The position numbers and the translations under genes were made by a program. The notes beneath the pieces were generated by a model that worked only from the letters and a program-made list of their open reading frames with translations, did no database searches and was not told where the DNA came from. A stretch of DNA of 64,000 bases, from NCBI RefSeq assembly GCF_046105845.1, contig NZ_CP151004.1, one strand, 5' to 3'. Below, piece by piece: positions 2,468 to 58,825 of the stretch (position 1 is its first letter; each line of letters begins with the position of its first letter). Source of the stretch: Escherichia coli (lineage in GTDB: Bacteria; Pseudomonadota; Gammaproteobacteria; Enterobacterales; Enterobacteriaceae).

Positions 2468-3706
2468 ATGGCTGACACTCGCCCTGAACGTCGCTTTACG
2501 CGCATTGATCGTCTCCCGCCCTACGTTTTTAATATTACCGCTGAACTGAAAATGGCTGCGCGTCGGCGCGGCGAAGATATTATCGATTTCAGTATGGGTA
2601 ACCCGGACGGTGCGACTCCGCCGCACATCGTCGAAAAATTATGTACGGTGGCCCAGCGCCCGGACACGCATGGTTACTCCACTTCACGCGGCATTCCGCG
2701 GCTACGTCGCGCCATTTCACGCTGGTATCAGGATCGCTACGACGTTGAAATCGACCCGGAATCAGAAGCCATCGTCACTATTGGTTCGAAAGAGGGACTG
2801 GCACATCTGATGCTGGCGACGCTGGATCATGGTGACACGGTGCTGGTGCCGAATCCAAGCTACCCCATTCATATTTATGGCGCGGTGATTGCCGGGGCGC
2901 AGGTACGCTCAGTGCCGCTGGTGGAAGGTGTCGATTTCTTCAATGAACTGGAGCGCGCCATTCGCGAAAGTTATCCGAAACCGAAGATGATGATCCTCGG
3001 CTTCCCGTCGAATCCAACCGCGCAATGCGTGGAGCTGGAGTTCTTCGAAAAGGTTGTGGCGCTGGCGAAACGCTACGATGTGCTGGTGGTCCATGACCTG
3101 GCCTATGCCGATATCGTCTACGATGGCTGGAAAGCGCCGTCAATCATGCAGGTGCCGGGTGCACGCGATGTGGCGGTCGAGTTCTTTACGCTGTCGAAAA
3201 GCTACAACATGGCGGGCTGGCGTATCGGCTTTATGGTTGGCAACAAAACGCTGGTCAGCGCGCTGGCACGTATTAAAAGCTATCACGATTACGGCACCTT
3301 TACGCCGTTGCAGGTGGCAGCGATTGCGGCGCTGGAGGGCGATCAACAGTGCGTGCGCGACATTGCTGAACAGTACAAACGCCGCCGTGATGTACTGGTA
3401 AAAGGGCTGCATGAAGCGGGCTGGATGGTCGAAATGCCGAAGGCTTCGATGTATGTCTGGGCGAAAATCCCGGAACCGTATGCTGCCATGGGCTCGCTGG
3501 AATTTGCCAAGAAGCTGCTGAACGAAGCGAAGGTCTGTGTCTCTCCGGGGATTGGCTTTGGCGACTACGGCGACACGCATGTTCGCTTTGCACTGATTGA
3601 AAACCGCGACCGTATTCGTCAGGCGATTCGTGGAATTAAAGCGATGTTCCGTGCCGATGGTTTACTACCCGCCAGCAGCAAACATATTCACGAAAATGCG
3701 GAATAA
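2468..3706 (+). CDS. alaC: glutamate-pyruvate aminotransferase (PLP-dependent class I aminotransferase)
   Basis: 412-aa ORF starting [21 protein letters not shown]; aminotransferase fold motifs; K-12 synteny. Confidence 0.9.
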
Positions 3707-8809: not shown

Positions 8810-10504
8810 ATGTCAGATCAACTTCAAATGACAGATGGTATGCATATCATCGTTGAAGCATTAAAACAGAATGATATTGACACTATTTATGGTGTTGTAG
8901 GTATTCCTGTGACGGATATGGCACGCCATGCCCAGGCGGAAGGCATTCGTTATATTGGTTTTCGTCATGAGCAGTCGGCAGGCTATGCCGCTGCGGCAAG
9001 CGGTTTTCTTACCCAAAAACCGGGGATCTGCCTGACAGTTTCTGCGCCAGGATTCCTCAATGGTTTGACCGCATTGGCCAATGCAACGGTAAATGGTTTT
9101 CCGATGATCATGATTAGCGGCTCCAGCGACCGCGCGATCGTCGACCTACAGCAAGGTGATTATGAAGAGCTGGACCAAATGAATGCGGCAAAACCGTATG
9201 CCAAAGCAGCATTCCGCGTTAATCAGCCGCAGGATCTTGGCATTGCATTGGCACGCGCTATCCGGGTCTCAGTATCGGGTCGCCCTGGCGGAGTTTATCT
9301 TGATTTACCAGCAAATGTCCTGGCCGCGACGATGGAAAAAGACGAAGCGTTAACCACGATTGTAAAAGTTGAAAATCCGTCGCCAGCATTATTGCCATGC
9401 CCGAAGTCAGTCACTAGCGCAATTTCGCTTTTAGCAAAAGCTGAACGTCCATTAGTTATCCTTGGCAAAGGCGCGGCGTATTCACAAGCGGATGAACAGC
9501 TTCGTGAATTTATTGAAAGTGCCCAGATTCCATTCCTGCCAATGTCTATGGCGAAAGGGATCCTCGAAGATACACATCCACTTTCTGCGGCAACTGCGCG
9601 TTCGTTTGCCCTGGCAAATGCTGACGTTGTCATGCTTGTTGGTGCACGACTGAATTGGTTACTGGCACACGGTAAAAAAGGATGGGCGGCAGATACACAG
9701 TTTATTCAACTGGATATTGAACCGCAGGAAATTGACAGCAACCGCCCCATTGCTGTGCCAGTCGTTGGCGATATTGCATCCAGTATGCAAGATATGCTGG
9801 CAGAACTGAAAAAAAACACATTTACGACTCCACTGGTATGGCGCGATATTTTAAATATCCACAAGCAGCAAAATGCACAAAAAATGCATGAAAAATTAAG
9901 TACAGATACTCAACCATTAAATTACTTTAATGCATTAAGTGCTGTGCGCGATGTATTGCGCGAGAACCAGGATATTTATTTAGTTAATGAAGGTGCAAAT
10001 ACCCTGGATAATGCACGAAATATTATTGATATGTATAAACCACGTCGCCGTCTGGATTGTGGTACCTGGGGTGTCATGGGCATCGGTATGGGCTATGCCA
10101 TCGGTGCTAGCGTGACCTCTGGTTCTCCGGTTGTCGCCATTGAAGGTGATAGTGCTTTTGGTTTCAGTGGGATGGAGATTGAAACGATTTGTCGATATAA
10201 CCTGCCGGTGACGGTCGTTATTTTTAATAATGGCGGCATCTACAGAGGAGACGGTGTTGATCTCAGTGGCGCTGGTGCACCATCACCAACAGATCTATTG
10301 CACCATGCAAGGTATGACAAATTAATGGATGCGTTTCGTGGCGTTGGCTATAACGTCACTACGACAGATGAACTTCGTCATGCTTTAACCACCGGTATTC
10401 AGTCGCGCAAACCGACCATTATTAATGTGGTCATCGACCCTGCAGCAGGAACTGAAAGTGGCCATATTACCAAACTTAACCCAAAACAAGTCGCTGGTAA
10501 TTAA
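8810..10504 (+). CDS. oxc: oxalyl-CoA decarboxylase (ThDP-dependent)
   Basis: 564-aa ORF with ThDP-binding motif ([31 protein letters not shown]). Confidence 0.9.
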
Positions 10505-10572
10505 ATACTGACATCGTCTCCTCTTGCCAACTCATTATCGATGGTGAGGGGACCCTTATCGGAAATACTATT

Positions 10573-11517
10573 ATGCTAACATTTTTTATTGGCGATTTAT
10601 TGCCTATTATCGTAATCATGCTGTTGGGTTATTTTAGCGGCAGACGAGAAACTTTTTCAGAAGATCAAGCCCGGGCATTTAATAAACTGGTATTAAACTA
10701 CGCTCTTCCTGCGGCCCTATTTGTTTCTATTACCCGGGCAAATAGGGAAATGATTTTTGCGGACACTCGCCTGACCCTTGTATCACTTGTGGTTATTGTC
10801 GGATGTTTCTTTTTCTCCTGGTTTGGTTGCTACAAATTTTTTAAACGTACTCATGCAGAAGCAGCAGTATGTGCATTAATTGCAGGTTCACCTACCATCG
10901 GATTCCTGGGATTTGCAGTTCTCGATCCTATTTATGGTGATTCCGTATCAACAGGTTTAGTTGTAGCAATTATTTCTATTATTGTTAACGCAATTACTAT
11001 TCCTATTGGTCTGTATTTGCTGAATCCTTCCTCAGGAGCAGATGGTAAGAAGAATAGTAATCTGAGCGCATTAATTTCTGCGGCAAAGGAGCCAGTAGTA
11101 TGGGCACCTGTTCTGGCAACGATCCTGGTGTTGGTTGGGGTAAAAATTCCGGCAGCATGGGACCCAACCTTTAATCTGATTGCGAAGGCTAACTCAGGGG
11201 TAGCGGTATTCGCTGCGGGGTTGACTCTGGCTGCACATAAATTCGAGTTCAGTGCTGAAATTGCTTATAACACCTTCCTGAAGCTGATTCTGATGCCACT
11301 GGTGCTGCTTCTCGTGGGTATGGCATGTCATTTGAACAGCGAACATTTGCAGATGATGGTACTGGCAGGCGCCTTACCGCCGGCATTCTCCGGAATCATT
11401 ATTGCCAGCCGGTTTAATGTCTACACCCGCACTGGTACAGCATCATTGGCTGTGAGCGTACTGGGCTTTGTCGTCACGGCTCCTTTGTGGATTTATGTCA
11501 GTCGACTGGTTTCATAA
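10573..11517 (+). CDS. yfdV: AEC-family membrane transporter
   Basis: 314-aa polytopic membrane ORF; K-12 synteny. Confidence 0.85.
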
Positions 11518-12790: not shown

Positions 12791-15700
12791 TTAGTCATTT
12801 TGTTGACAGAAAACAGCAATCTCCTGGTCTAACTCTGCAATGTGTTCTTTAACAGAGTTCAGCAACTTAAGAATTTCAGGCTTGCTGTCATCTGAAACGG
12901 GCGTTATTTCTAACTGATGGCTAAGATTAATCAACTTTTGCAAATTCAGGATGTTAGCCGCACCGTGGATGCGATGAATACACTGATGGAAAATTCTGTT
13001 GTCGCCAGCTTCTAGTGCATGAAACGCAGCGGGTAGATCTTTATGCGTTTCATGCTGGAAAGTCATGAGAATCTCCTGCATCAGTTGTAGATCGTTCGCC
13101 GTATTATTTTTCAGGGCCTCGATATCAAGGTGGCGATACTGAGGTGCAATATGCGCAACCTGGTGTAACTGACTTAAATGTGTTTTCAGTACATCCAGGG
13201 TCAACGGTTTGAACAAACATAAGTTCATGCCGCAATTTAACCCTTTTTCACGTTCGTTAGCCTGTGCGTTGGCTGTAAGCCCCCAGATAGGTAAGGAAGA
13301 ATTTTGCTCACGGAGTTTGCGAGTCAACTCAAAACCATCCATATTCGGCATATTAACGTCAGTAATAAGCAGATCATAATGTTGCATACTGACTTTGTGT
13401 AGCGCTTGCACACCATCAGTGGCTTCATCAACATCATATCCTAATAGGTTTAGCTGGCGTTTGAGTAATAGCCTGTTGGTCGGATGATCATCCGCGATTA
13501 ATATACTCAACTTTTCAGGGAGTGTCATAGGTTGTTCTGCTTTTGCCTCGACAGTCGCCACTTGTTGGGTAATTTCTACCGGGATTGTGATCGTAAATGT
13601 CGTTCCTATGCCTGGATGACTTTCTAATGACAAATCGCCCTGCATGTTTTTAATTAATTCTTTGCAGATCATTAAGCCTAAACCAGAACCTGTTTGCTGA
13701 CGACCTGCACTTGTTTGGCTATAGCGTTTAAACAGTTGTTGTTGTTCTTCCTGCGATAATCCACTTCCAGAATCCATAATCGTCATTTTGATAACAGCGT
13801 GGTTGTCATCAATGTCACCCAGGGAGGTCGTAATTTTTACTGCCCCCTCGGTGGTAAATTTGAGAGCATTGCTCAGTAAATTAGATAAGACCTGCTTAAA
13901 CGCCTGAGGGTCGATCTTAACCTGGTAATGTTCAGGAAACGTACTGCTGCAACTTAATGCGATGGATTTGCTTGCAGCAATCGCACCGAAAGAGTGACAA
14001 GTGTTCTGGACTAAAGTAGGGATATCGACCCATTGTGGTTGAAGTTGATAGTTACCCGACTCAATTTTGTCGACATCAAGGATTTCACCAATTAAGCCGA
14101 GGAGTGATTGTCCGGTGGCGTAGGCAAGTGAAATCGCCTCCACCCGTTGCTCCTTGCTAAGACCAGAACCCGACAAAAGTTCCAGGAAGCCCATAATGGA
14201 GCTTATTGGTGTTCTTATTTCGTGACTCATTGTTGCCAGAAACTGGCTTTTTGCGACAGTTGCATTGATCGCTTTATTTCTCTCTACTTCGAGTGCATGA
14301 ATTAAATCACGCGTCTCGGTAATATCTTGCCAACCACAAATATAAACAGCATGATCGCTGGCTGGCAGATTGCATAATGTATGCCAGTGATTAATGCATC
14401 TTTTCTCGATGCCATTATCAATTTCAAATACCTGTGTGTATATTGTTCGATTTTCTTTCGTTTCTGCTGTGACTTCATGCGCATTAGAAAAAACATCTTT
14501 AAAGGGTGAGTCACTGTTTTCTAATGGTAACATTGCATTTTTGTAGTAATCCGCAGTGAAATAATGTTCAAAAGCACTATTATGACTAATGACATTACCT
14601 TGCCAGTTTACAACATAAGTTGGATTCGGTAAGGAATCCGAGAGTGCTTTTCGGAATGATATTTGGTTTTCTAAATCACCCTGAATGACTTTACGACGAC
14701 GAACTGAGCGTAACAGGTAGAATCCCCATAAAAGGCTACTGCCAACTAATAAAACGGATAATGTCGTGACAATATAAAATTGCTCGCTATAGAGGTCCCA
14801 TGTGTCAATGGTCACATTGGGCATTTTAATCCATTTTTCCGTCAGGCGCAGAACTTCGCTTGGGGGAATTGCATTCAGTGCTTTATTAATAATATCCTTA
14901 AGTTCCGGTTCTCCGCGAGGAAAAGCGAACGAAAGCGATGCATTCTGAACGCCGGGAATAAGAAAATGATAAAGTTCATTAGGATAGTAATGGTCGATCA
15001 TGTAACGCGAATTTAGCTGTGTCGCGACCAGAGCATCAAGTTCACCTTCTTTAACCTTGTGAAATGCAGCGCTGGCATTATCGACTTTTATCCACTCTAC
15101 CTCCGGATACATCTCTTTTAATTGCGAATGAAGCTCATAATAATATGGAATGGCAACTTTCATTCCTTTTTTTAATGTTTGTTCACTGTCAGGCGCTTTT
15201 TGCATGACAAAAACGTAAGGCGTTGTTATGAAGGCTTCAGCAAATGAAACATTATTTTCTCGATCTTCACTATAAATAGCGGCGGGCAATATATCCCATC
15301 CACCGGGATTAAGCTGTGTCCCCGCATGAATATTGTGTGAAACGGTGATCGGAGAAAAATTTAAACCTGTTTGCAAGGTAATAATATTAAGAATATCACC
15401 CATCACGCCCCGAACTGAGCCAGTTTCATCTGTCATAGAATAGGGTGGCGAGTAAGGATTTTCCAGCACCTTTAAATCGGGATGCTGCTTAATCCACTGT
15501 TTTTCATGTTCAGTGAGTTCTAATGGTTTGTTCAGAAAGGCCAGGTTTCCTGTATCAAGCCAATTTTGTGATACTTCATAGCGAACTTCATTTGTTAAAG
15601 CATCAACAAATCGATTGAGTACTTCATTAAGAACGACTGAATCTTTTCTGGTTAAGAAAAAGTTATATTGACGCGGCGAGTTATAATATTTCACTACATT

Positions 15701-54096: not shown

Positions 54097-55512
54097 ATGG
54101 CTACGTGGCAACAGGGTATTAATTCTGGTGGTTTTCTGGCTGGCATCGGTACGCAAAATGAGAATGCGCCAAAGGCAAGCGACATTAACGCAACGCTTGG
54201 TCTGATCCGCGAAAACAATGAACTGGCTCGCTCAGGTGCAAATAACGTTAGTCTGACCGCGTTACGTGGTCTGGCTGGAGTTGCTGATATTTACAATCAG
54301 GAACAGCAACAGAAAGCGATTAGTGCGTTCAATAAGGTTCACGCTGATGCATGGGCTTCTGGTGATCCATCGGGACTATTTAAGTTTGCCCAGGAAAATC
54401 CAGCGTTTGTTGCACAGGCACAACAGGCGTTTTCCGGTCTTAATGATCAGCAACGCAACGATATGGGCGATTTAGCCATGAGGGCTAACGTCGCTCTTTC
54501 TCAGGGACCGGAAGCCTACAGTAAATTCATTACTGACAACAAGGACAGGTTAAATCGCGTGGGGGCGAATGCTGACTGGATGATTCAGACAGGTATCCAG
54601 AATCCAGAGCAGCTATCACACATGCTGACTACTATGTCTCTCGGTGCGCTTGGACCAGAAAAGGCGTTTGCTGTTCAGGACAAGATGGCTGGTCGTGAAA
54701 TTGACCGAGGCAAACTTGCAGAGACAATCCGCAGCAATCAGGCTGGAGAAGCACTTCAGGCGAGAGGGCAAAACCTTTCCTATCAGTCAGCAATGACTGG
54801 ACACAATATCGCAGCACAACGCTTGGCTCTGGATCAGCAAGAGTTCGGGTTTAAGATGCAGCAAGCGCAGGAAAAGGCTCAGCAGTTGATTAGCGAAGCA
54901 CCTAAGCTGTCAGTAAACATGGAAAAAGGCATCGAGACGGCTGTAAACAATGCCACAGCATCATCAAACTCAGCCAATTCCATGAGTGCGCTTGCTCAAC
55001 AGTTCAGAGCAGAAAAACCAACGACAGGTTTGTTCGGTAACGCACAGAACATGTTCGCAAAACTTACCGGAAGCGATACGACATTGCGTGATTTGCGCAT
55101 TCGCCAAAATGCCCTTGTTAACAGTCAGGTTCTTAAATTCCTACCTCCCGGCCCAGCAACGGATAAAGACGTTGAGATCGTTAGACAGGGTGCGCCAACT
55201 GACATGGATAACCCTGAGACGGTCGCAAGATGGCTTGATGCAATGGCAAACCTTGAGCGACGAAACGCGCAGTTTAATGAGTTTAAAGCTGAGTGGATGA
55301 GCGCGAATGGCAACCCTGGACAATCGCGTAATGGCGGTCAGATATTGGGGTTGGATGTTAAAAAAGGTGAATCATTGGGGAGTGCCGTTAAGCGGTATAT
55401 GTCATTGAATACTGACGCAGCGCCAGCACAAGATTCGATACCTTCAGGAGAACCACGGAATCAGGTTGGATCATATACCTCAAAATCAGGCATTCAATTT
55501 ACGGTGGAATGA
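54097..55512 (+). CDS. ejection protein, P22 gp20-like
   Basis: 471-aa ORF, same length and position as P22 gp20. Confidence 0.7.
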
Positions 55513-57350
55513 TGAAAGTAACTGCAAACGGAAAGACATTTACCTTCCCTGATGGTACGAGCACGGAAGATATTGGCACCGCCATTGATGAGTATTTTGC
55601 TGGTCAGGCTGTTCAGCAACAAACAGTTAATCAGGCCAATAATGCACCAACACGGGAAGAACCATCATTGATGCAACAAGCTGGCGATTGGCTCACAGGT
55701 GGTCAAAGTGCAGGGCAAATTGCAGAGCAGGCTGGTCGTGGTCTGGTAAACATACCATTTGACGTATTGCAGGGTGGCGCAAGTCTGATTAATGCAATCA
55801 GCCAGGGGCTTGGTGGCCCCAAGGTTTTGGACGATGTCTATCGTCCAGTAGATCGACCAACAGACCCTTATGCGCAAGCTGGAGAAACAATTGGCGGGTA
55901 TTTAGTTCCAGGAGTTGGAACTGCAGGAAGCATGGCTATTGGATCACTGGCAGAAGCCGCAAACCAGAAAGGCGATTTCGCGCAAAATGCAGCCATAAAC
56001 GCCGGAGTTAACCTTGCCGCTCAGGGTGTTCTTTCCGCAGCAGCAAAGGGAATAGGGCGTGGAATAACGGCTATAAAAGGCGATATCGCGCCAGAAGTAG
56101 CGAAAAAAATTGCCACCTCAGAATCGATGGGCGTGACACCAATGACATCTGATGTTATCCCGCCGAAAAATGCTTTCACTCGCGGCCTTACTCAGGATGC
56201 CGAGGGGGCTTTGCTCGGGACAGGCTCAAAGCGAGCGGAGCAATATGCAACGCGTAGTAAGTTGGTAAGTAATTATTTTGACCGTTTTGGTGAGTACAAC
56301 CCGGATGATGTGGTGAAATCTCTGACCACCACGTTAAGGGGACGGAAGGATGCCGCTGGCGCTGTTATCAATGACGTCACCAATAAAATGGGTAATGCCG
56401 CAGTTGATACCACAAACACTATGAATGCTCTGAATACAGCGATCGCAAGACAGGAACGGCTTGGGACGTCTGCCAATCAAAGCCTGCTTACATCCTTGCG
56501 TAACCTACGTGAAGAATTAGCAAACCCTGCAACTGATTTGGATGTTACGTTTGATCTCTTGCGTCAGCACAGAACAGCATTTAGATCTAATGTTCAGGGA
56601 GATGCTATGGTCTTCCCCAACCAGGCAAAAGCAGCTACCAATATGGTAGAGAATGCAATGTCAAAAGACCTTCGTAACGCAGTTGCTAAAAACCTCGGTG
56701 CATCAGACGCAGCAAAATACCTTAAAGCAAATTCAGATTATGCAAACGTTTATAATAAGGTGCTTAATAAAAACATTGCTAACAAGCTCAACAAGGCAAG
56801 CAGTGAAGCCAGTCCTGAACTTATAAATACCGTTGTATTAAGCAGAAAACCATCTGACGTGAAACGAATCTGGAGCGCATTGGATGATAAAGGGAAAGAT
56901 GCTATGCGTGCAGCTTACGTCAGCAAAATAGCGGAAAAGGCCGGTGACTCTCCAGCCAAGTTCATCACTGAAGTTAATAAGCTGAAATCTCAGTCAGGCG
57001 GTGAAATTTACAACACTATTTTTTCTGGAAAGCACATGAAAGAACTTGATGCTCTTCATGAAGTTCTGCAGCAAACAGCAAGGTCAGACACCGCAAATGT
57101 AGTAACTCAGACGGGGCAATCGCAAGCCAACAGGATAAGGACGATTGGCGCAACTGCGACTCTTGGCGTATCAATGGGGCTTGAGGCTGGTTTCGGTGCA
57201 ATGATGCGCTTGTATGAGTCTAAAGCAGCAAGAAACATGCTTCTCCGCCTTGCAAACGTCAAGCCTGGAACTCCGGCATATGAGCGAGCGTTAAATCAGG
57301 CTGCTAACGCCGTTCGCCCTCTCCTAACTAACGAAGCTACCAGGCAGTAG
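55509..57350 (+). CDS. ejection protein, P22 gp16-like
   Basis: 613-aa ORF in the gp16 position. Confidence 0.7.
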
Positions 57351-57369: not shown

Positions 57370-57699
57370 CTATTTAATTCTCTTTTCAATGGCTGCAATT
57401 ATTGCTTTTCCTGATGTTTCAGGAGATTTTGTAGCCATATAAGACGAAAAAATCATGTCGGTCATTCTTTCATAACTTACTATTTCCCACTTAGCCAATG
57501 CATGGGACAGTTTGTAGTTGTCATCAGTTAGTGCCCTTATGGAATTTTTTAAGTGTTTATTCTCTTCTGTTAATCGCGCAATTTTTGTATCAATTTCATG
57601 TGAGCGATCTAATTCCTTAACCTGTTTCTTGAGGGCAGCTAACCCTGCATATAGTACGCAACAGGATATCCCAAGAGCGAGTACGACTATTTCTAACAC
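57370..57699 (-). CDS. hypothetical membrane-anchored coiled-coil protein (109 aa)
   Basis: N-terminal TM helix (MLEIVVLALGISCCVLYAGLAAL) plus coiled-coil; convergent with the ejection genes; low GC. Confidence 0.55.
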   Translation of the reverse strand: MLEIVVLALGISCCVLYAGLAALKKQVKELDRSHEIDTKIARLTEENKHLKNSIRALTDDNYKLSHALAKWEIVSYERMTDMIFSSYMATKSPETSGKAIIAAIEKRIK

Positions 57700-57817
57700 A
57701 CCAACCTCCTTAGTTTTTCGCAGGATACCATGAAAAAAGTAAACATCTTTTGCCTACTTCACATTTGAATGGTTTGTCATTAGGATGTTTCCGGTTTTTT
57801 CAAATATGGAAATTGAT

Positions 57818-58237
57818 ATGAAGAGGATTATCGGCGTTGTTGCTGGCGCTATATTGTTATCTGGGTGCGCAACTATTGTTGGTGACGAAACACAGCTCGT
57901 GCAAGTGAACAGCAATCCTTCCGGTGCGAGCTTTAAAGTAAAAGACGAATCAGGCGTGATTGTTGCGCAAGGCAAGACCCCGCAAGGAGTAACTCTTGCC
58001 AAGTCAGATGGGAGTTATTTTGGCAAAAAGAGCTACCAGATCACTATGGAAAAGGATGGGTACGAACCAGTTACCCTGCCAATCAAAGCCAATGCTAATG
58101 GTTGGTATATTGGTGGAAACCTTGTGTTTGGTGGGTTAATTGGTTGGCTTGCTGTAGATCCTTTTAATGGTGGGATGTATACCTTGAAGCCAAAAGAGGC
58201 AAACGCATCTCTTATACCATCAACAAAGCAAGACTAA
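57818..58237 (+). CDS. predicted lipoprotein with PEGA-like beta domain and Gly-zipper C-terminus (140 aa)
   Basis: Signal peptide and lipobox MKRIIGVVAGAILLSGC; PSGASFKVKDESGVIVAQGKTPQGVTL...KDGYEPVTLPI resembles a PEGA domain; ORF track offers a longer 57785 start. Confidence 0.6.
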   Translation: MKRIIGVVAGAILLSGCATIVGDETQLVQVNSNPSGASFKVKDESGVIVAQGKTPQGVTLAKSDGSYFGKKSYQITMEKDGYEPVTLPIKANANGWYIGGNLVFGGLIGWLAVDPFNGGMYTLKPKEANASLIPSTKQD

Positions 58238-58245
58238 TAAATAGG

Positions 58246-58268
58246 ACCCACCTTCAGGTGGGTTTTTT
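58246..58268 (+). terminator. terminator after the lipoprotein gene, overlapping the mnt 3' end
   Basis: ACCCACC-TTCA-GGTGGGT hairpin followed by TTTTTT. Confidence 0.65.
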
Positions 58269-58505
58269 GTACAAATCCTTCAGCGTATCAAACACCATCT
58301 TCTTAACAAGCTCTGACTGCTCATCAGCGAGTCGTTCTGCATCGTCGCGATATCCAGTCACAGGCGATGGTTTTGATAGAGCATCTTGGACGATTTGTAA
58401 CAACTCGGAGTTCATTGATCTCCCATTCGCCTCCGCCCTGAATTTTAATTTCTCCCTTACTTCCATAGGCATACGGAAGTTAAAGTGCGGATCATCTCTA
58501 GCCAT
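58254..58505 (-). CDS. mnt: Mnt repressor (ribbon-helix-helix), immI
   Basis: 83-aa ORF MARDDPHFNFRMPMEVREKLKFRAEANGRSMNSELLQIVQDALSKP... near-identical to recalled P22 Mnt. Confidence 0.9.
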   Translation of the reverse strand: MARDDPHFNFRMPMEVREKLKFRAEANGRSMNSELLQIVQDALSKPSPVTGYRDDAERLADEQSELVKKMVFDTLKDLYKKPT

Positions 58506-58757: not shown

Positions 58758-58825
58758 AGTTGAAGCCCCAACTGCGGGAACAGTCAGGGCTTCGGTATCA
58801 ACAAATCGGATTAGGAAATATTGAC

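What the first reader, a model, noticed from the sequence alone, without database searches (positions are those of the whole stretch)
57370..58237. Divergent membrane-protein / lipoprotein pair at the P22 sieA position
Between the last ejection-protein gene and mnt, where P22 is known to carry the superinfection-exclusion gene sieA, this prophage has two divergently transcribed genes separated by 118 bp: a 109-aa N-terminally anchored coiled-coil protein (minus strand, low GC) and a 140-aa lipoprotein with a PEGA-like beta domain and Gly-zipper C-terminus. Neither resembles SieA as I recall it. The lipoprotein gene's terminator hairpin overlaps the mnt coding end, indicating tight integration. 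Envelope-localised prophage proteins at this locus are prime candidates for blocking DNA injection or receptor access.
Basis: partly seen in the sequence, partly recalled or inferred. Interest (0 to 1): 0.65.

Follow-up and report, generated by a model that had tools for sequence, protein, structure and literature searches.

The report
Two swappable prophage envelope-protein cassettes
Between the last DNA-ejection gene and mnt of this E. coli P22-like prophage lie two real but unrelated accessory genes, an inner-membrane coiled-coil protein in the sieA slot and a self-contained outer-membrane lipoprotein cassette; both are plausible but untested phage-exclusion or envelope-modifying factors, and they are not a co-evolved pair.

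Summary
A 109-aa gene (57370-57699, minus) and a 139-aa lipoprotein gene (57818-58237, plus) lie 118 bp apart between the gene 16 homologue and mnt of an E. coli P22-like prophage. Neither resembles SieA.

They are not a functional pair. Each recombines independently: 11 of 37 ORF-A loci carry ORF-B, 11 of 80 ORF-B loci carry ORF-A, and 9 of 5426 complete E. coli genomes have both.

ORF-A sits in the sieA slot. It shares sieA's -10 region, leader, ribosome-binding site and GTG start. The same leader precedes at least five unrelated predicted envelope proteins: SieA, HkcB-like, ORF-A, a 129-aa secreted protein and a 62-aa membrane protein.

ORF-B is epsilon34 gene 15. It is a promoter-gene-terminator moron that replaced hkcC, leaving a 12-codon stub. 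Close relatives sit at two other sites in siphophage tail modules. It belongs to a very large, uncharacterised bacterial lipoprotein family with a PEGA/transthyretin-like sandwich and an invariant Gly-rich C-terminal motif.

The terminator hairpin at the mnt end also exists in P22, so it does not indicate tight integration.

Function is untested. Superinfection exclusion is a reasonable hypothesis, stronger for ORF-A than for ORF-B. Both genes are already in PHROGs with unknown function. Interest is modest.

The parts
55509..57350 (+). Gene 16 homologue, the last DNA-ejection protein gene; left boundary of the accessory region
   Evidence: ORF. PGAP name 'P22-gp16 family phage DNA ejection protein' in a 99.6% identical E. 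coli genome.
57370..57699 (-). ORF-A: 109-aa bitopic membrane protein. TM is about residues 3-22 (57634-57693), followed by a long helix/coiled coil and a conserved C-terminal segment. It occupies the sieA slot.
   Evidence: phrog_8100 at E = 1.4e-69. Only 14 homologue clusters in 5.8 billion proteins. Same position and strand as P22 sieA.
57700..57746 (-). Shared 'sieA-slot' leader: -10-like TGGTATCCT, 5' leader and AAGGAGG ribosome-binding site, ending at the GTG start
   Evidence: Near-identical upstream of P22 sieA, HK620 hkcB, epsilon34 gene 14 and the ST160 ORF-A homologue. Also upstream of a 129-aa and a 62-aa gene in IMG/VR loci. Overlaps the annotated P22 sieA promoter at its -10 end only.
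57731..57769 (+). Remnant of the hkcC 5' end (MKKVNIFCLLHI*), left when the lipoprotein cassette replaced hkcC
   Evidence: Alignment with P22, HK620 and ST160, where ATGAAAAAAGTTAACATTGG begins the full hkcC/orf64 gene.
57758..57786 (+). Sigma-70-like promoter of the lipoprotein cassette (TTCACA, 17 nt, TAGGAT)
   Evidence: Hexamers are conserved in position in phage Gally despite a divergent spacer. The -10 and downstream sequence TAGGATGTTTCCGATTTTTT is shared with siphophage copies.
57818..58237 (+). ORF-B: 139-aa lipoprotein. Signal peptide with lipobox LSGC, Cys17 at 57866-57868. Beta-sandwich over residues 25-93 and 121-131. Invariant motif NGWYIGGNxxFGGLIGWxxVDPFNGGMYTL over residues 94-123 (58097-58186).
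   Evidence: phrog_6823 at E = 6.1e-86. 97.8% identical to epsilon34 gp15.
58245..58269 (.). Intrinsic terminator hairpin with T-run, bidirectional, overlapping the mnt stop codon and last codons
   Evidence: Annotated as a terminator in the epsilon34 record. A weaker version is present at the P22 mnt end.
58254..58505 (-). mnt repressor gene; right boundary of the accessory region

Best explanation
The locus holds two independent accessory ('moron') cassettes in the hypervariable region between gene 16 and mnt of a P22-like prophage.

(1) ORF-A
- Shown: ORF-A fills the sieA slot. It starts at the same GTG, behind the same ribosome-binding site, leader and -10 element that precede sieA in P22.
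- Shown: that same socket carries at least five unrelated genes, all predicted to encode envelope proteins.
- Inferred: ORF-A is a bitopic inner-membrane protein with its N-terminus out and its C-terminus in. The coiled coil and the conserved C-terminal segment would face the cytoplasm.
- Inferred: it is made at a low level in the lysogen, as SieA is. It interferes at the inner membrane with an incoming phage, most likely at DNA delivery by P22-like ejection proteins. I put this at about 0.4.

(2) ORF-B
- Shown: ORF-B is a self-contained promoter-lipoprotein-terminator cassette that replaced hkcC. Close relatives lie at two other sites in siphophage tail modules.
- Shown: it was recruited from a very large family of bacterial lipoproteins.
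- Inferred: Ala at position +2 sends it to the inner leaflet of the outer membrane. There the sandwich domain and a Gly-rich re-entrant helical hairpin would bind a conserved host envelope component, changing the cell surface of the lysogen.
- Not decided: whether the selected benefit is phage exclusion (about 0.35) or envelope robustness / host fitness (about 0.4).

The two proteins probably act separately, in different compartments.
For: Architecture and mosaicism:
- Megablast splits the 1-kb region into two halves with different phage relatives. ST160 and SE1 match the ORF-A half. Epsilon34, Gally and vB_EcoP-720R6 match the ORF-B half. The junction is in the shared leader.
- In IMG/VR, 37 ORF-A loci have ORF-B as partner in 11, hkcC in 10 and neither in 16.
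- In 80 ORF-B loci, the slot after gene 16 holds a Gally gp13-type lipoprotein in 17, a 129-aa secreted protein in about 18, an HkcB-like gene in 12, ORF-A in 11 and a 62-aa membrane protein in 4.
- In complete E. coli genomes, ORF-B is in 125 of 5426, ORF-A in 16 and both in 9.

Shared leader:
- Searches show the common leader. The P22 sieA promoter is annotated at NC_002371 13861-13891.
- A fragment of 85 bp upstream plus sieA sufficed for exclusion in single copy (PMC10883804).

Precedents at this locus:
- BTP1's lysogen-expressed leftward transcript STnc6030 excludes BTP1, with escape changes in the gene 16 homologue (PMC7067206).

ORF-A topology:
- There are no K or R residues before the TM and 3-4 after it, in ORF-A and its homologues.
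- AlphaFold2 models a long helix.

ORF-B as a moron:
- A promoter and a terminator are found in every context examined.
- The gene lies between tail chaperone T and the tape-measure gene in E. coli and Proteus prophages, and between tail genes I and J in Pseudescherichia and related prophages.
- A 12-codon hkcC stub remains.

ORF-B family breadth:
- 728 clusters at 90% identity and 5485 clusters at 50% identity with E <= 1e-3.
- Relatives occur across phyla.
- The two distant members examined lie in ordinary chromosomal contexts.

ORF-B constraint: dN/dS is 0.03.
Against: - There are no expression data and no phenotype for either gene.
- In this window and in epsilon34, the annotated -35 of the sieA promoter is replaced. 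Only the -10, leader and ribosome-binding site remain, so ORF-A may be poorly transcribed here.
- ORF-A has no similarity to SieA and one TM instead of three. Its dN/dS of 0.64 rests on only 27 changes and could reflect weak constraint rather than an arms race.
- ORF-B is nearly invariant (97-100% identical in 75 P22-like loci). It rides with tailspikes whose receptor-binding part is unrelated to this window's in 69 of 69 loci and with siphophage tails in other genera. This does not fit a receptor-specific self-exclusion protein such as Cor or Llp.
- Neither gene has a significant match (E <= 0.001) in PADLOC defence models; ORF-B has none at all and ORF-A only a weak LmuB match (E = 0.0014).
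- The Gly-rich segment is modelled with low confidence, pLDDT 51-62.
Confidence: 0.5

Rival explanations
1. The two genes form one two-component, envelope-spanning exclusion system: an inner-membrane coiled-coil protein plus an outer-membrane lipoprotein acting together. This is what the first reader's 'pair' implies.
For: - The genes are adjacent and divergent, so co-regulation is possible.
- Epsilon34 has an architecturally similar pair: gp14, with an N-terminal TM and a coiled coil, next to the same lipoprotein.
- ORF-A and gp14 share 33% identity over 67 aa.
Against: - Their distributions are independent: 11 of 37 ORF-A loci, 11 of 80 ORF-B loci and 9 of 5426 genomes carry both.
- ORF-B pairs with at least five different neighbours, and in siphophages with none of them.
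- The ORF-A soluble part is predicted to be cytoplasmic and ORF-B to be at the outer membrane, so contact is unlikely.
- The ORF-A/HkcB profile match is confined to 37 coiled-coil columns at 64% probability.
Confidence: 0.07
2. ORF-B is a host-fitness (lysogenic-conversion) factor rather than an anti-phage protein. It would be an extra copy of a widespread bacterial envelope lipoprotein that improves outer-membrane robustness, stress tolerance or serum resistance of the lysogen, in the manner of Bor or Lom.
For: - The family is very large, spans phyla, and the two distant members examined lie in ordinary chromosomal, non-phage contexts.
- Purifying selection is very strong.
- It is carried by phages with unrelated tails and hosts.
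- In E. coli siphophage loci it sits near a porin moron.
- It has no PADLOC match.
Against: - No phenotype is known for any family member.
- No paper was found on the family.
- All insertion sites seen in phages are within tail or ejection modules, where known exclusion morons such as Cor, HK97 gp15 and SieA also lie. This last point is from established knowledge plus PMC10883804.
Confidence: 0.35
3. ORF-A is not an exclusion protein. It could be a membrane-anchored regulator or abortive-infection-type toxin, a factor for the phage's own lytic cycle, or a decaying, weakly constrained ORF.
For: - dN/dS is 0.64 against the ST160 copy.
- The annotated sieA -35 element is lost in this arrangement.
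- The family is tiny, with 14 clusters.
- The soluble domain is predicted to be cytoplasmic, so it would not face an incoming phage in the periplasm.
- There are weak DivIC and ZapB-like coiled-coil matches.
Against: - The C-terminal 40 residues are invariant across homologues down to 50% identity. The ORF is intact in all 37 IMG/VR loci and in 16 E. coli genomes at >= 99.4% identity.
- It has a strong ribosome-binding site.
- It shares its socket with a proven exclusion gene.
- SieA's own conserved motif is also predicted to be cytoplasmic (PMC10883804).
Confidence: 0.25
4. One or both genes encode virion or assembly components of the tail/ejection module.
For: - They lie inside the late-operon region between an ejection-protein gene and the tailspike gene.
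- ORF-B has the late-operon orientation.
- Fold matches include phage structural proteins, but only at E > 1e-3.
Against: - Both are absent from well-studied, fully viable P22-like phages: tblastn finds neither in P22 or HK620, and their gene 16-to-tailspike intervals carry other genes.
- ORF-B has a lipoprotein signal peptide, its own promoter and its own terminator.
- ORF-A is on the opposite strand to the late operon.
- The same lipoprotein occurs in podophage and siphophage genomes.
Confidence: 0.03

Closest known systems
P22 SieA (superinfection exclusion A; Leavitt et al. 2024, PMC10883804)
   Same: - ORF-A has the same genomic slot and strand, directly after gene 16.
- It has the same -10, leader, ribosome-binding site and GTG start.
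- It is a small membrane protein, and its conserved part is predicted to be cytoplasmic.
   Different: - There is no sequence similarity.
- It has one TM instead of three and a long coiled coil.
- It lacks the FxRYPxEAxxFNK motif.
- Its function is untested.
- Here the annotated sieA -35 element is replaced.
HK620 HkcB / epsilon34 gp14 (phrog_5962, function unknown)
   Same: - Same slot, same leader and about the same length (107-109 aa).
- N-terminal TM followed by a coiled coil.
- In epsilon34 it is also next to the ORF-B lipoprotein.
   Different: - They fall in different PHROG families.
- The profile-profile match covers only 37 coiled-coil columns at 64% probability.
- The C-terminal conserved segments differ.
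Epsilon34 gene 15 (Villafane et al. 2008, PMC2629481)
   Same: ORF-B is this gene, at 97.8% amino-acid identity, in the same position and with the same terminator. The paper lists it as of unknown function, matching 'numerous bacterial genes'.
   Different: The neighbour on the minus strand differs (gp14, not ORF-A), as do the host species and the tailspike.
Moron elements as defined for HK97/HK022 (Juhala et al. 2000), e.g. HK97 gp15, lambda bor/lom, and cor of phi80/N15
   Same: - ORF-B is a promoter-gene-terminator unit inserted between conserved late genes and is present or absent among relatives.
- The E. coli siphophage copy lies between the tail chaperone and tape-measure genes, which from my own recollection is where HK97 gene 15 lies.
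   Different: - It has no homology to HK97 gp15, Cor, Bor or Lom. The phrog_1119 'Cor' match covers the signal peptide only, at E = 0.0034.
- Unlike cor, it is not tied to one receptor type.
PEGA / transthyretin-like (CarboxypepD_reg) beta-sandwich lipoproteins of bacteria
   Same: - The fold of residues 25-93 matches.
- UniProt relatives are named 'PEGA domain-containing protein'.
- PGAP names the E. coli protein 'peptidase associated/transthyretin-like domain-containing protein'.
   Different: - The Pfam PEGA score is below threshold at E = 0.031.
- The defining feature of this family is the invariant Gly-rich C-terminal motif, which no Pfam or NCBIfam model covers.
- No member has a solved structure or a known function.

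Membership tests
SieA superinfection-exclusion family (types A-C) | Sequence homology to SieA, including the conserved FxRYPxEAxxFNK motif | tested here: not met
   BLASTP of ORF-A and ORF-B against P22 SieA gives a best E-value of 0.2. The motif is absent from both sequences (read directly). Type B and C SieA were not compared.
SieA superinfection-exclusion family (types A-C) | Three or four predicted transmembrane helices | tested here: not met
   ORF-A has one hydrophobic segment, against three in P22 SieA, by the same hydropathy scan.
SieA superinfection-exclusion family (types A-C) | Located between gene 16 and the tailspike gene of a P22-like prophage, on the opposite strand, behind the sieA leader | tested here: met
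   Only the -10, leader and ribosome-binding-site part of the promoter region is retained in this window.
SieA superinfection-exclusion family (types A-C) | Blocks DNA injection by P22-like phages | not testable with these tools
   Needs plating and DNA-entry assays.
Moron (autonomous promoter-gene-terminator insertion in a phage late operon) | Own promoter upstream and own terminator downstream | tested here: met
   For ORF-B: TTCACA, 17 nt, TAGGAT, conserved across contexts, with an intrinsic terminator in all 12 contexts examined. These are consensus matches only; the transcription start is not mapped.
Moron (autonomous promoter-gene-terminator insertion in a phage late operon) | Present or absent between otherwise conserved flanking genes, and found at different sites in different phages | tested here: met
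   ORF-B is absent from P22, HK620 and ST160. It is present between gene 16 and mnt in this window and in epsilon34, between T and the tape-measure gene, and between I and J.
Bacterial lipoprotein (Lgt/LspA substrate), outer-membrane sorted | Signal peptide ending in lipobox [LVI][ASTVI][GAS]C, with no Asp at +2 | tested here: met
   MKRIIGVVAGAILLSG|C-A-T. Cys17 and Ala18 are invariant in 46 homologues. The Pfam LPAM_1 model matches in some members. Lipidation itself was not tested.
PEGA domain (Pfam PF08308) | Significant match to the Pfam model | tested here: inconclusive
   E = 0.031 for this protein. None of 46 members reaches E <= 0.001, and 7 reach E <= 0.1. The fold is consistent with the transthyretin-like clan.
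Cor / Llp receptor-blocking lipoproteins | Homology to Cor or Llp, and carriage by phages that use the blocked receptor | tested here: not met
   The phrog_1119 (Cor) match covers residues 1-20 only, at E = 0.0034. ORF-B occurs with unrelated tailspikes and with siphophage tails in several genera.
HkcB family (phrog_5962) | Profile-level homology over most of the protein | tested here: inconclusive
   hhalign gives probability 64% and E = 6.8e-5 over 37 of about 109 columns, all in the coiled coil. The architecture is the same.
YceK / DUF1375 lipoproteins (a label some sources give to ORF-B relatives) | Homology beyond the signal peptide | tested here: not met
   hhalign matches 16 columns, namely the lipobox and the first mature residues.
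Known anti-phage defence systems (PADLOC-DB) | Match to a defence-system protein model | tested here: not met
   ORF-B has no match. ORF-A has only a coiled-coil match to LmuB at E = 0.0014.

The most novel reading that the evidence does not exclude
The conserved sieA leader (-10, 5' leader, ribosome-binding site and GTG) may be an 'expression socket' at which P22-like phages exchange unrelated envelope proteins. The known occupants are SieA, HkcB-like, ORF-A, a 129-aa periplasmic protein and a 62-aa membrane protein. Under this reading each occupant is a distinct blocker of DNA delivery, matched to different ejection-protein types. Separately, ORF-B would define a new, very large family of outer-membrane lipoproteins whose phage-borne copies protect lysogens broadly by acting on a conserved envelope component.
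Probability: 0.2. Interest if true: 0.65.

Novelty: new member of a known kind. Interest (0 to 1): 0.38.

Why it matters
Only 22 of 66 sequenced P22-like phages carry sieA (PMC10883804). What the others carry in its place has not been studied functionally.

This locus gives concrete, easily cloned candidates. It also shows that the slot is filled through a shared leader by several unrelated envelope proteins.

If ORF-A or its co-occupants block injection, they would be new exclusion families. They could also serve as probes of how the gp7/gp20/gp16 conduit crosses the inner membrane.

ORF-B belongs to a family of thousands of bacterial lipoproteins with an invariant motif and no known role. 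A phenotype for the phage-borne copy would give the first functional handle on that family.

If neither gene shows a phenotype, this is an ordinary moron locus.

Tried and rejected
- Family libraries. Pfam, NCBIfam, PHROGs and PADLOC gave only unknown-function PHROGs and sub-threshold matches for both proteins.
- Solved structures. A PDB sequence search with the ORF-B profile found nothing beyond generic CnaB-like repeats.
- ORF-A fold search. The ORF-A model is essentially one long helix, so I ran no further search on it.
- Literature. Searches for 'PEGA domain' papers (the OCTIN paper PMC5915273 is unrelated), hkcB/hkcC, the protein accessions and PHROG ids, and combinations of moron, lipoprotein and exclusion found no functional study of either gene.
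- Promoter source. The original sieA paper (PMC176996) is not held, so I took the promoter position from the RefSeq annotation.
- 'YceK' label. It reflects lipobox similarity only, so I rejected it.
- ORF-A/HkcB homology could not be established.
- BTP1 lead. I checked whether the 62-aa slot occupant explains BTP1's STnc6030 exclusion transcript. The protein is found in other phages, but BTP1 was not among the records, so the lead is unresolved.
- Tailspike comparison. It shows only that ORF-B loci do not share this window's receptor-binding domain. It does not count tailspike types.
Full report
**What is there**

The window region 55.5-62.1 kb is the right end of the late region of a P22-like (Lederbergvirus) prophage of Escherichia coli. 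The 1-kb segment 57300-58300 is 99.6-99.9% identical, end to end, to nine complete E. coli chromosomes. PGAP annotates the flanking genes there as 'P22-gp16 family phage DNA ejection protein', 'Arc family DNA-binding protein' (mnt and arc), an antirepressor and a tailspike, followed by integrase IntS. Rfam finds sar RNA at 58758-58824 on the minus strand, so the immI region is complete.

- ORF-A, 57370-57699, minus strand, 109 aa.
- ORF-B, 57818-58237, plus strand, 139 aa.
- They are separated by 118 bp.

**Are they genes?**

ORF-A has a GTG start five bases after AAGGAGG. It matches phrog_8100 over its whole length at E = 1.4e-69. It has only 14 homologue clusters among 5.8 billion proteins, from Salmonella, E. 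coli and Klebsiella. Its last 40 residues are invariant in relatives down to 50% identity.

ORF-B matches phrog_6823 at E = 6.1e-86. It is 97.8-100% identical to epsilon34 gp15 and to proteins of phages Gally and vB_EcoP-720R6. Against the epsilon34 copy it shows 25 synonymous and 3 non-synonymous differences, giving dN/dS 0.03. ORF-A against its ST160 copy shows 8 and 19, giving 0.64. Both are therefore real genes. ORF-B is under strong constraint. ORF-A is under weak or diversifying selection in its N-terminal two-thirds.

**ORF-A protein**

- A single hydrophobic segment covers about residues 3-22.
- AlphaFold2 predicts one continuous helix over residues 2-91 and a short helix over 97-108, with mean pLDDT 85.6.
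- Pfam gives only weak coiled-coil matches, such as DivIC at E = 0.009 and ZapB.
- No Lys or Arg precedes the TM and three to four follow it, in ORF-A, its relatives, HkcB and epsilon34 gp14.
- By the positive-inside rule this predicts N-terminus out and C-terminus in. The coiled coil and conserved C-terminus would then be cytoplasmic. This is an inference.

**ORF-B protein**

- The signal peptide ends in lipobox LSGC. Cys17 and Ala18 are invariant, and the mature N-terminus CATIVG is nearly invariant.
- Ala at +2 predicts sorting to the outer membrane. This follows from the established +2 rule.
- AlphaFold2 with 46 sequences gives mean pLDDT 77. It models a confident beta-sandwich (residues 25-93, pLDDT above 90) that is completed by a hairpin at 121-131. 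Two short, low-confidence helices at 95-112 contain the most conserved part of the family, NGWYIGGNxxFGGLIGWxxVDPFNGGMYTL.
- Foldseek against AFDB50 returns hundreds of 'PEGA domain-containing protein' or 'Lipoprotein' entries at 36-67% identity. They come from Enterobacterales, Neisseria, Pseudomonas, Vibrio, Acinetobacter, Bacteroidota and Desulfobacterota.
- The Pfam PEGA score itself is sub-threshold at E = 0.031.
- A profile search of 1.84 billion representatives finds 5485 clusters at E <= 1e-3 and 2047 at E <= 1e-10.
- No member has a solved structure.
- The 'YceK' label that some sources attach reflects lipobox similarity only.

**The pair is a mosaic, not a unit**

Megablast against phage genomes finds no phage that covers 80% of the 1-kb segment:
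- ST160, SE1, ST-32 and others match the ORF-A half, where the gene is often unannotated.
- Epsilon34, Gally and 720R6 match the ORF-B half.
- HK620 and P22 match only a roughly 50-bp piece in between.

In IMG/VR:
- Of 37 loci with ORF-A, ORF-B is the divergent neighbour in 11, hkcC in 10, and neither in 16.
- Of 80 loci with ORF-B, the minus-strand gene after gene 16 is a Gally gp13-type lipoprotein in 17, a 129-aa signal-peptide protein in about 18, an HkcB-like protein in 12, ORF-A in 11 and a 62-aa membrane protein in 4.
- The remaining ORF-B loci have other contexts, including siphophages.

Among 5426 complete E. coli genomes, ORF-B is in 125, ORF-A in 16 and both in 9. ORF-A also occurs with at least three different gp16 C-terminal variants, at 99-100%, 77-79% and 56% identity.

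**The sieA slot and its shared leader**

In P22, sieA lies on the minus strand directly after gene 16, just as ORF-A does. Aligning the upstream regions shows the following:
- The 47 bp before the start codon are ATGTT(T/A)ACTTTTTTCATGGTATCCTGC..AAAACTAAGGAGGTTGG(T/C)GTG.
- This sequence is essentially identical for P22 sieA, HK620 hkcB, epsilon34 gene 14, the ST160 ORF-A homologue and the window's ORF-A.
- The same leader precedes the 129-aa and 62-aa genes in IMG/VR loci.
- The Gally gp13-type lipoprotein has a different upstream region.

At least five unrelated coding sequences, all predicted envelope proteins, therefore begin at the same GTG behind the same leader. All but SieA belong to unknown-function PHROGs.

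The RefSeq P22 record annotates the sieA promoter at 13861-13891. Leavitt et al. showed that sieA with 85 bp of upstream DNA excludes P22 in single copy (PMC10883804). ST160-type phages keep this whole fragment ahead of their ORF-A homologue. In the window and in epsilon34, only the -10 end, the leader and the ribosome-binding site remain. The annotated -35 (TTGGTA) is replaced by unrelated sequence. Expression of ORF-A in this prophage is therefore plausible but less secure.

**ORF-B is a mobile moron that replaced hkcC**

On the plus strand, the shared leader contains the start of hkcC (ATGAAAAAAGTTAACATTGG...), which is a full gene in P22, HK620 and ST160. The window and epsilon34 keep only a 12-codon stub at 57731-57769. 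The ORF-B cassette follows it.

The cassette has a sigma-70-like promoter, TTCACA, 17 nt, TAGGAT, at 57758-57786:
- Its hexamers are conserved in position in Gally although the spacer differs.
- Its -10 and downstream sequence, TAGGATGTTTCCGATTTTTT, recurs upstream of siphophage copies.
- In all 12 contexts examined the gene is followed by an intrinsic terminator, with different sequences in different contexts.

Homologues at 68-78% identity lie in lambda-like siphophage prophages:
- between the tail chaperone T and the tape-measure gene in E. coli and Proteus;
- between tail genes I and J in Pseudescherichia and relatives.

The two more distant members whose contexts I checked (Enterobacter huaxiensis and Zoogloea) are stand-alone chromosomal genes with no phage neighbours and no conserved partner.

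**The terminator**

The hairpin at 58245-58263 with its T-run is a good intrinsic terminator. Its right arm and T-run encode the last Mnt residues (KKPT) and the stop codon. The epsilon34 record annotates it as a terminator.

P22, which lacks ORF-B, has a weaker version of the same hairpin and T-run at its mnt end. HK620's record annotates a tMNT terminator associated with its mnt remnant. The hairpin therefore looks like a feature of the mnt module that the cassette abuts, not a sign of tight integration.

**What they probably do**

Nothing here tests function. For ORF-A the argument is guilt by position:
- It shares an expression socket with the one characterised occupant, SieA. [quoted passage not shown]
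- In the P22-like prophage BTP1, a leftward, lysogen-expressed transcript from the same interval excludes BTP1. Its escape mutations change the gene 16 homologue (PMC7067206).
- I therefore favour an inner-membrane block of incoming P22-like phages, at about 0.4. The caveats are the truncated promoter and the weak constraint.

For ORF-B the evidence points to a lysogen-expressed outer-membrane lipoprotein that binds something conserved:
- It shows extreme conservation.
- It belongs to a very large bacterial family.
- It is carried by phages with unrelated tails and hosts, and none of 69 ORF-B loci shares this window's tailspike receptor-binding region.

This fits a general envelope effect, or exclusion through a conserved host component. 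It fits better than a receptor-specific self-exclusion protein such as Cor or Llp does. I cannot separate phage exclusion (about 0.35) from host fitness (about 0.4). A joint two-component system is unlikely (0.07), and virion roles are very unlikely (0.03).

**Comparison with what is known, and novelty**

The variability of this 'ant moron' region, and epsilon34 genes 14 and 15 as unknowns, were described in 2008 (PMC2629481). The absence of sieA from most P22-like phages was noted in 2024. Both genes are in PHROGs. I found no functional study of either.

The finding is thus a correct description of an ordinary kind of locus, with two uncharacterised cargo genes. The analysis adds four things:
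- the shared-leader socket with at least five cargoes;
- the hkcC stub;
- the moron anatomy of ORF-B and its multiple insertion sites;
- the size of the ORF-B family.

Interest is modest (0.38). It would rise if the simple plating experiments show exclusion.

Noticed in passing
window 57700-57746 (minus strand); loci L016, L017, L001, L002, L090, L105: The same roughly 47-bp leader (-10-like TGGTATCCT, AAGGAGG ribosome-binding site, GTG start) precedes at least five unrelated genes in P22-like phages: sieA, hkcB/epsilon34 gene 14, ORF-A, a 129-aa signal-peptide protein (phrog_2651) and a 62-aa membrane protein (phrog_21338). The recombination joint lies exactly at the start codon.
   Followed up: partly
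window 57731-57769 (+): A 12-codon remnant of the hkcC 5' end (MKKVNIFCLLHI*) marks where the lipoprotein cassette displaced hkcC. The same stub is present in epsilon34.
   Followed up: yes
L002 3401-3766 (ST160 orf64) and L017 2540-2905 (HK620 hkcC): HkcC, the alternative plus-strand occupant of this locus (phrog_1365, function unknown), contains an HExxH-like motif (HECAH). It has no signal peptide or TM, so it may be a small cytoplasmic metallopeptidase-like protein.
   Followed up: no
L002 about 3041-3370 (ST160), NC_011802 38479-38805 (SE1): The ORF-A homologue (82.6% identical) is intact but not annotated in the GenBank records of phages ST160, SE1 and SE1Spa.
   Followed up: partly
L004, L006, L007 and L008, about 10261-11424: In the E. 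coli siphophage prophages that carry the ORF-B paralogue between the tail chaperone and tape-measure genes, a second moron encoding a porin (Pfam Porin_1/Porin_4) lies between the minor tail gene and tail gene L.
   Followed up: no
literature: BTP1 prophage, PMC7067206: The exclusion transcript STnc6030 of BTP1 arises from the same interval between gene 16 and the tailspike gene. All its escape mutations are non-synonymous changes in the gene 16 homologue, as for SieA escape mutants. A small protein product rather than an antisense RNA may deserve a check. The 62-aa slot protein was not found to be from BTP1.
   Followed up: partly
alignment A1 (for example P0107, P0110, P0115, P0119): Some ORF-B homologues carry a conserved 30-45-residue C-terminal extension (...DGSISIxLIQDVPxSLRNKM...) that is absent from the phage copies.
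   Followed up: no
window 58758-58824 (-): sar antisense RNA (Rfam RF00262, 71.6 bits) is present between arc and ant, so the immI region of this prophage looks intact.
   Followed up: yes
L003 2425-2940 (Gally gp13), L018 1919-2404: Another alternative occupant of the slot after gene 16 is itself a lipoprotein (lipobox LLAGC, 171 aa, phrog_6067). It has its own upstream region, different from the shared leader.
   Followed up: partly
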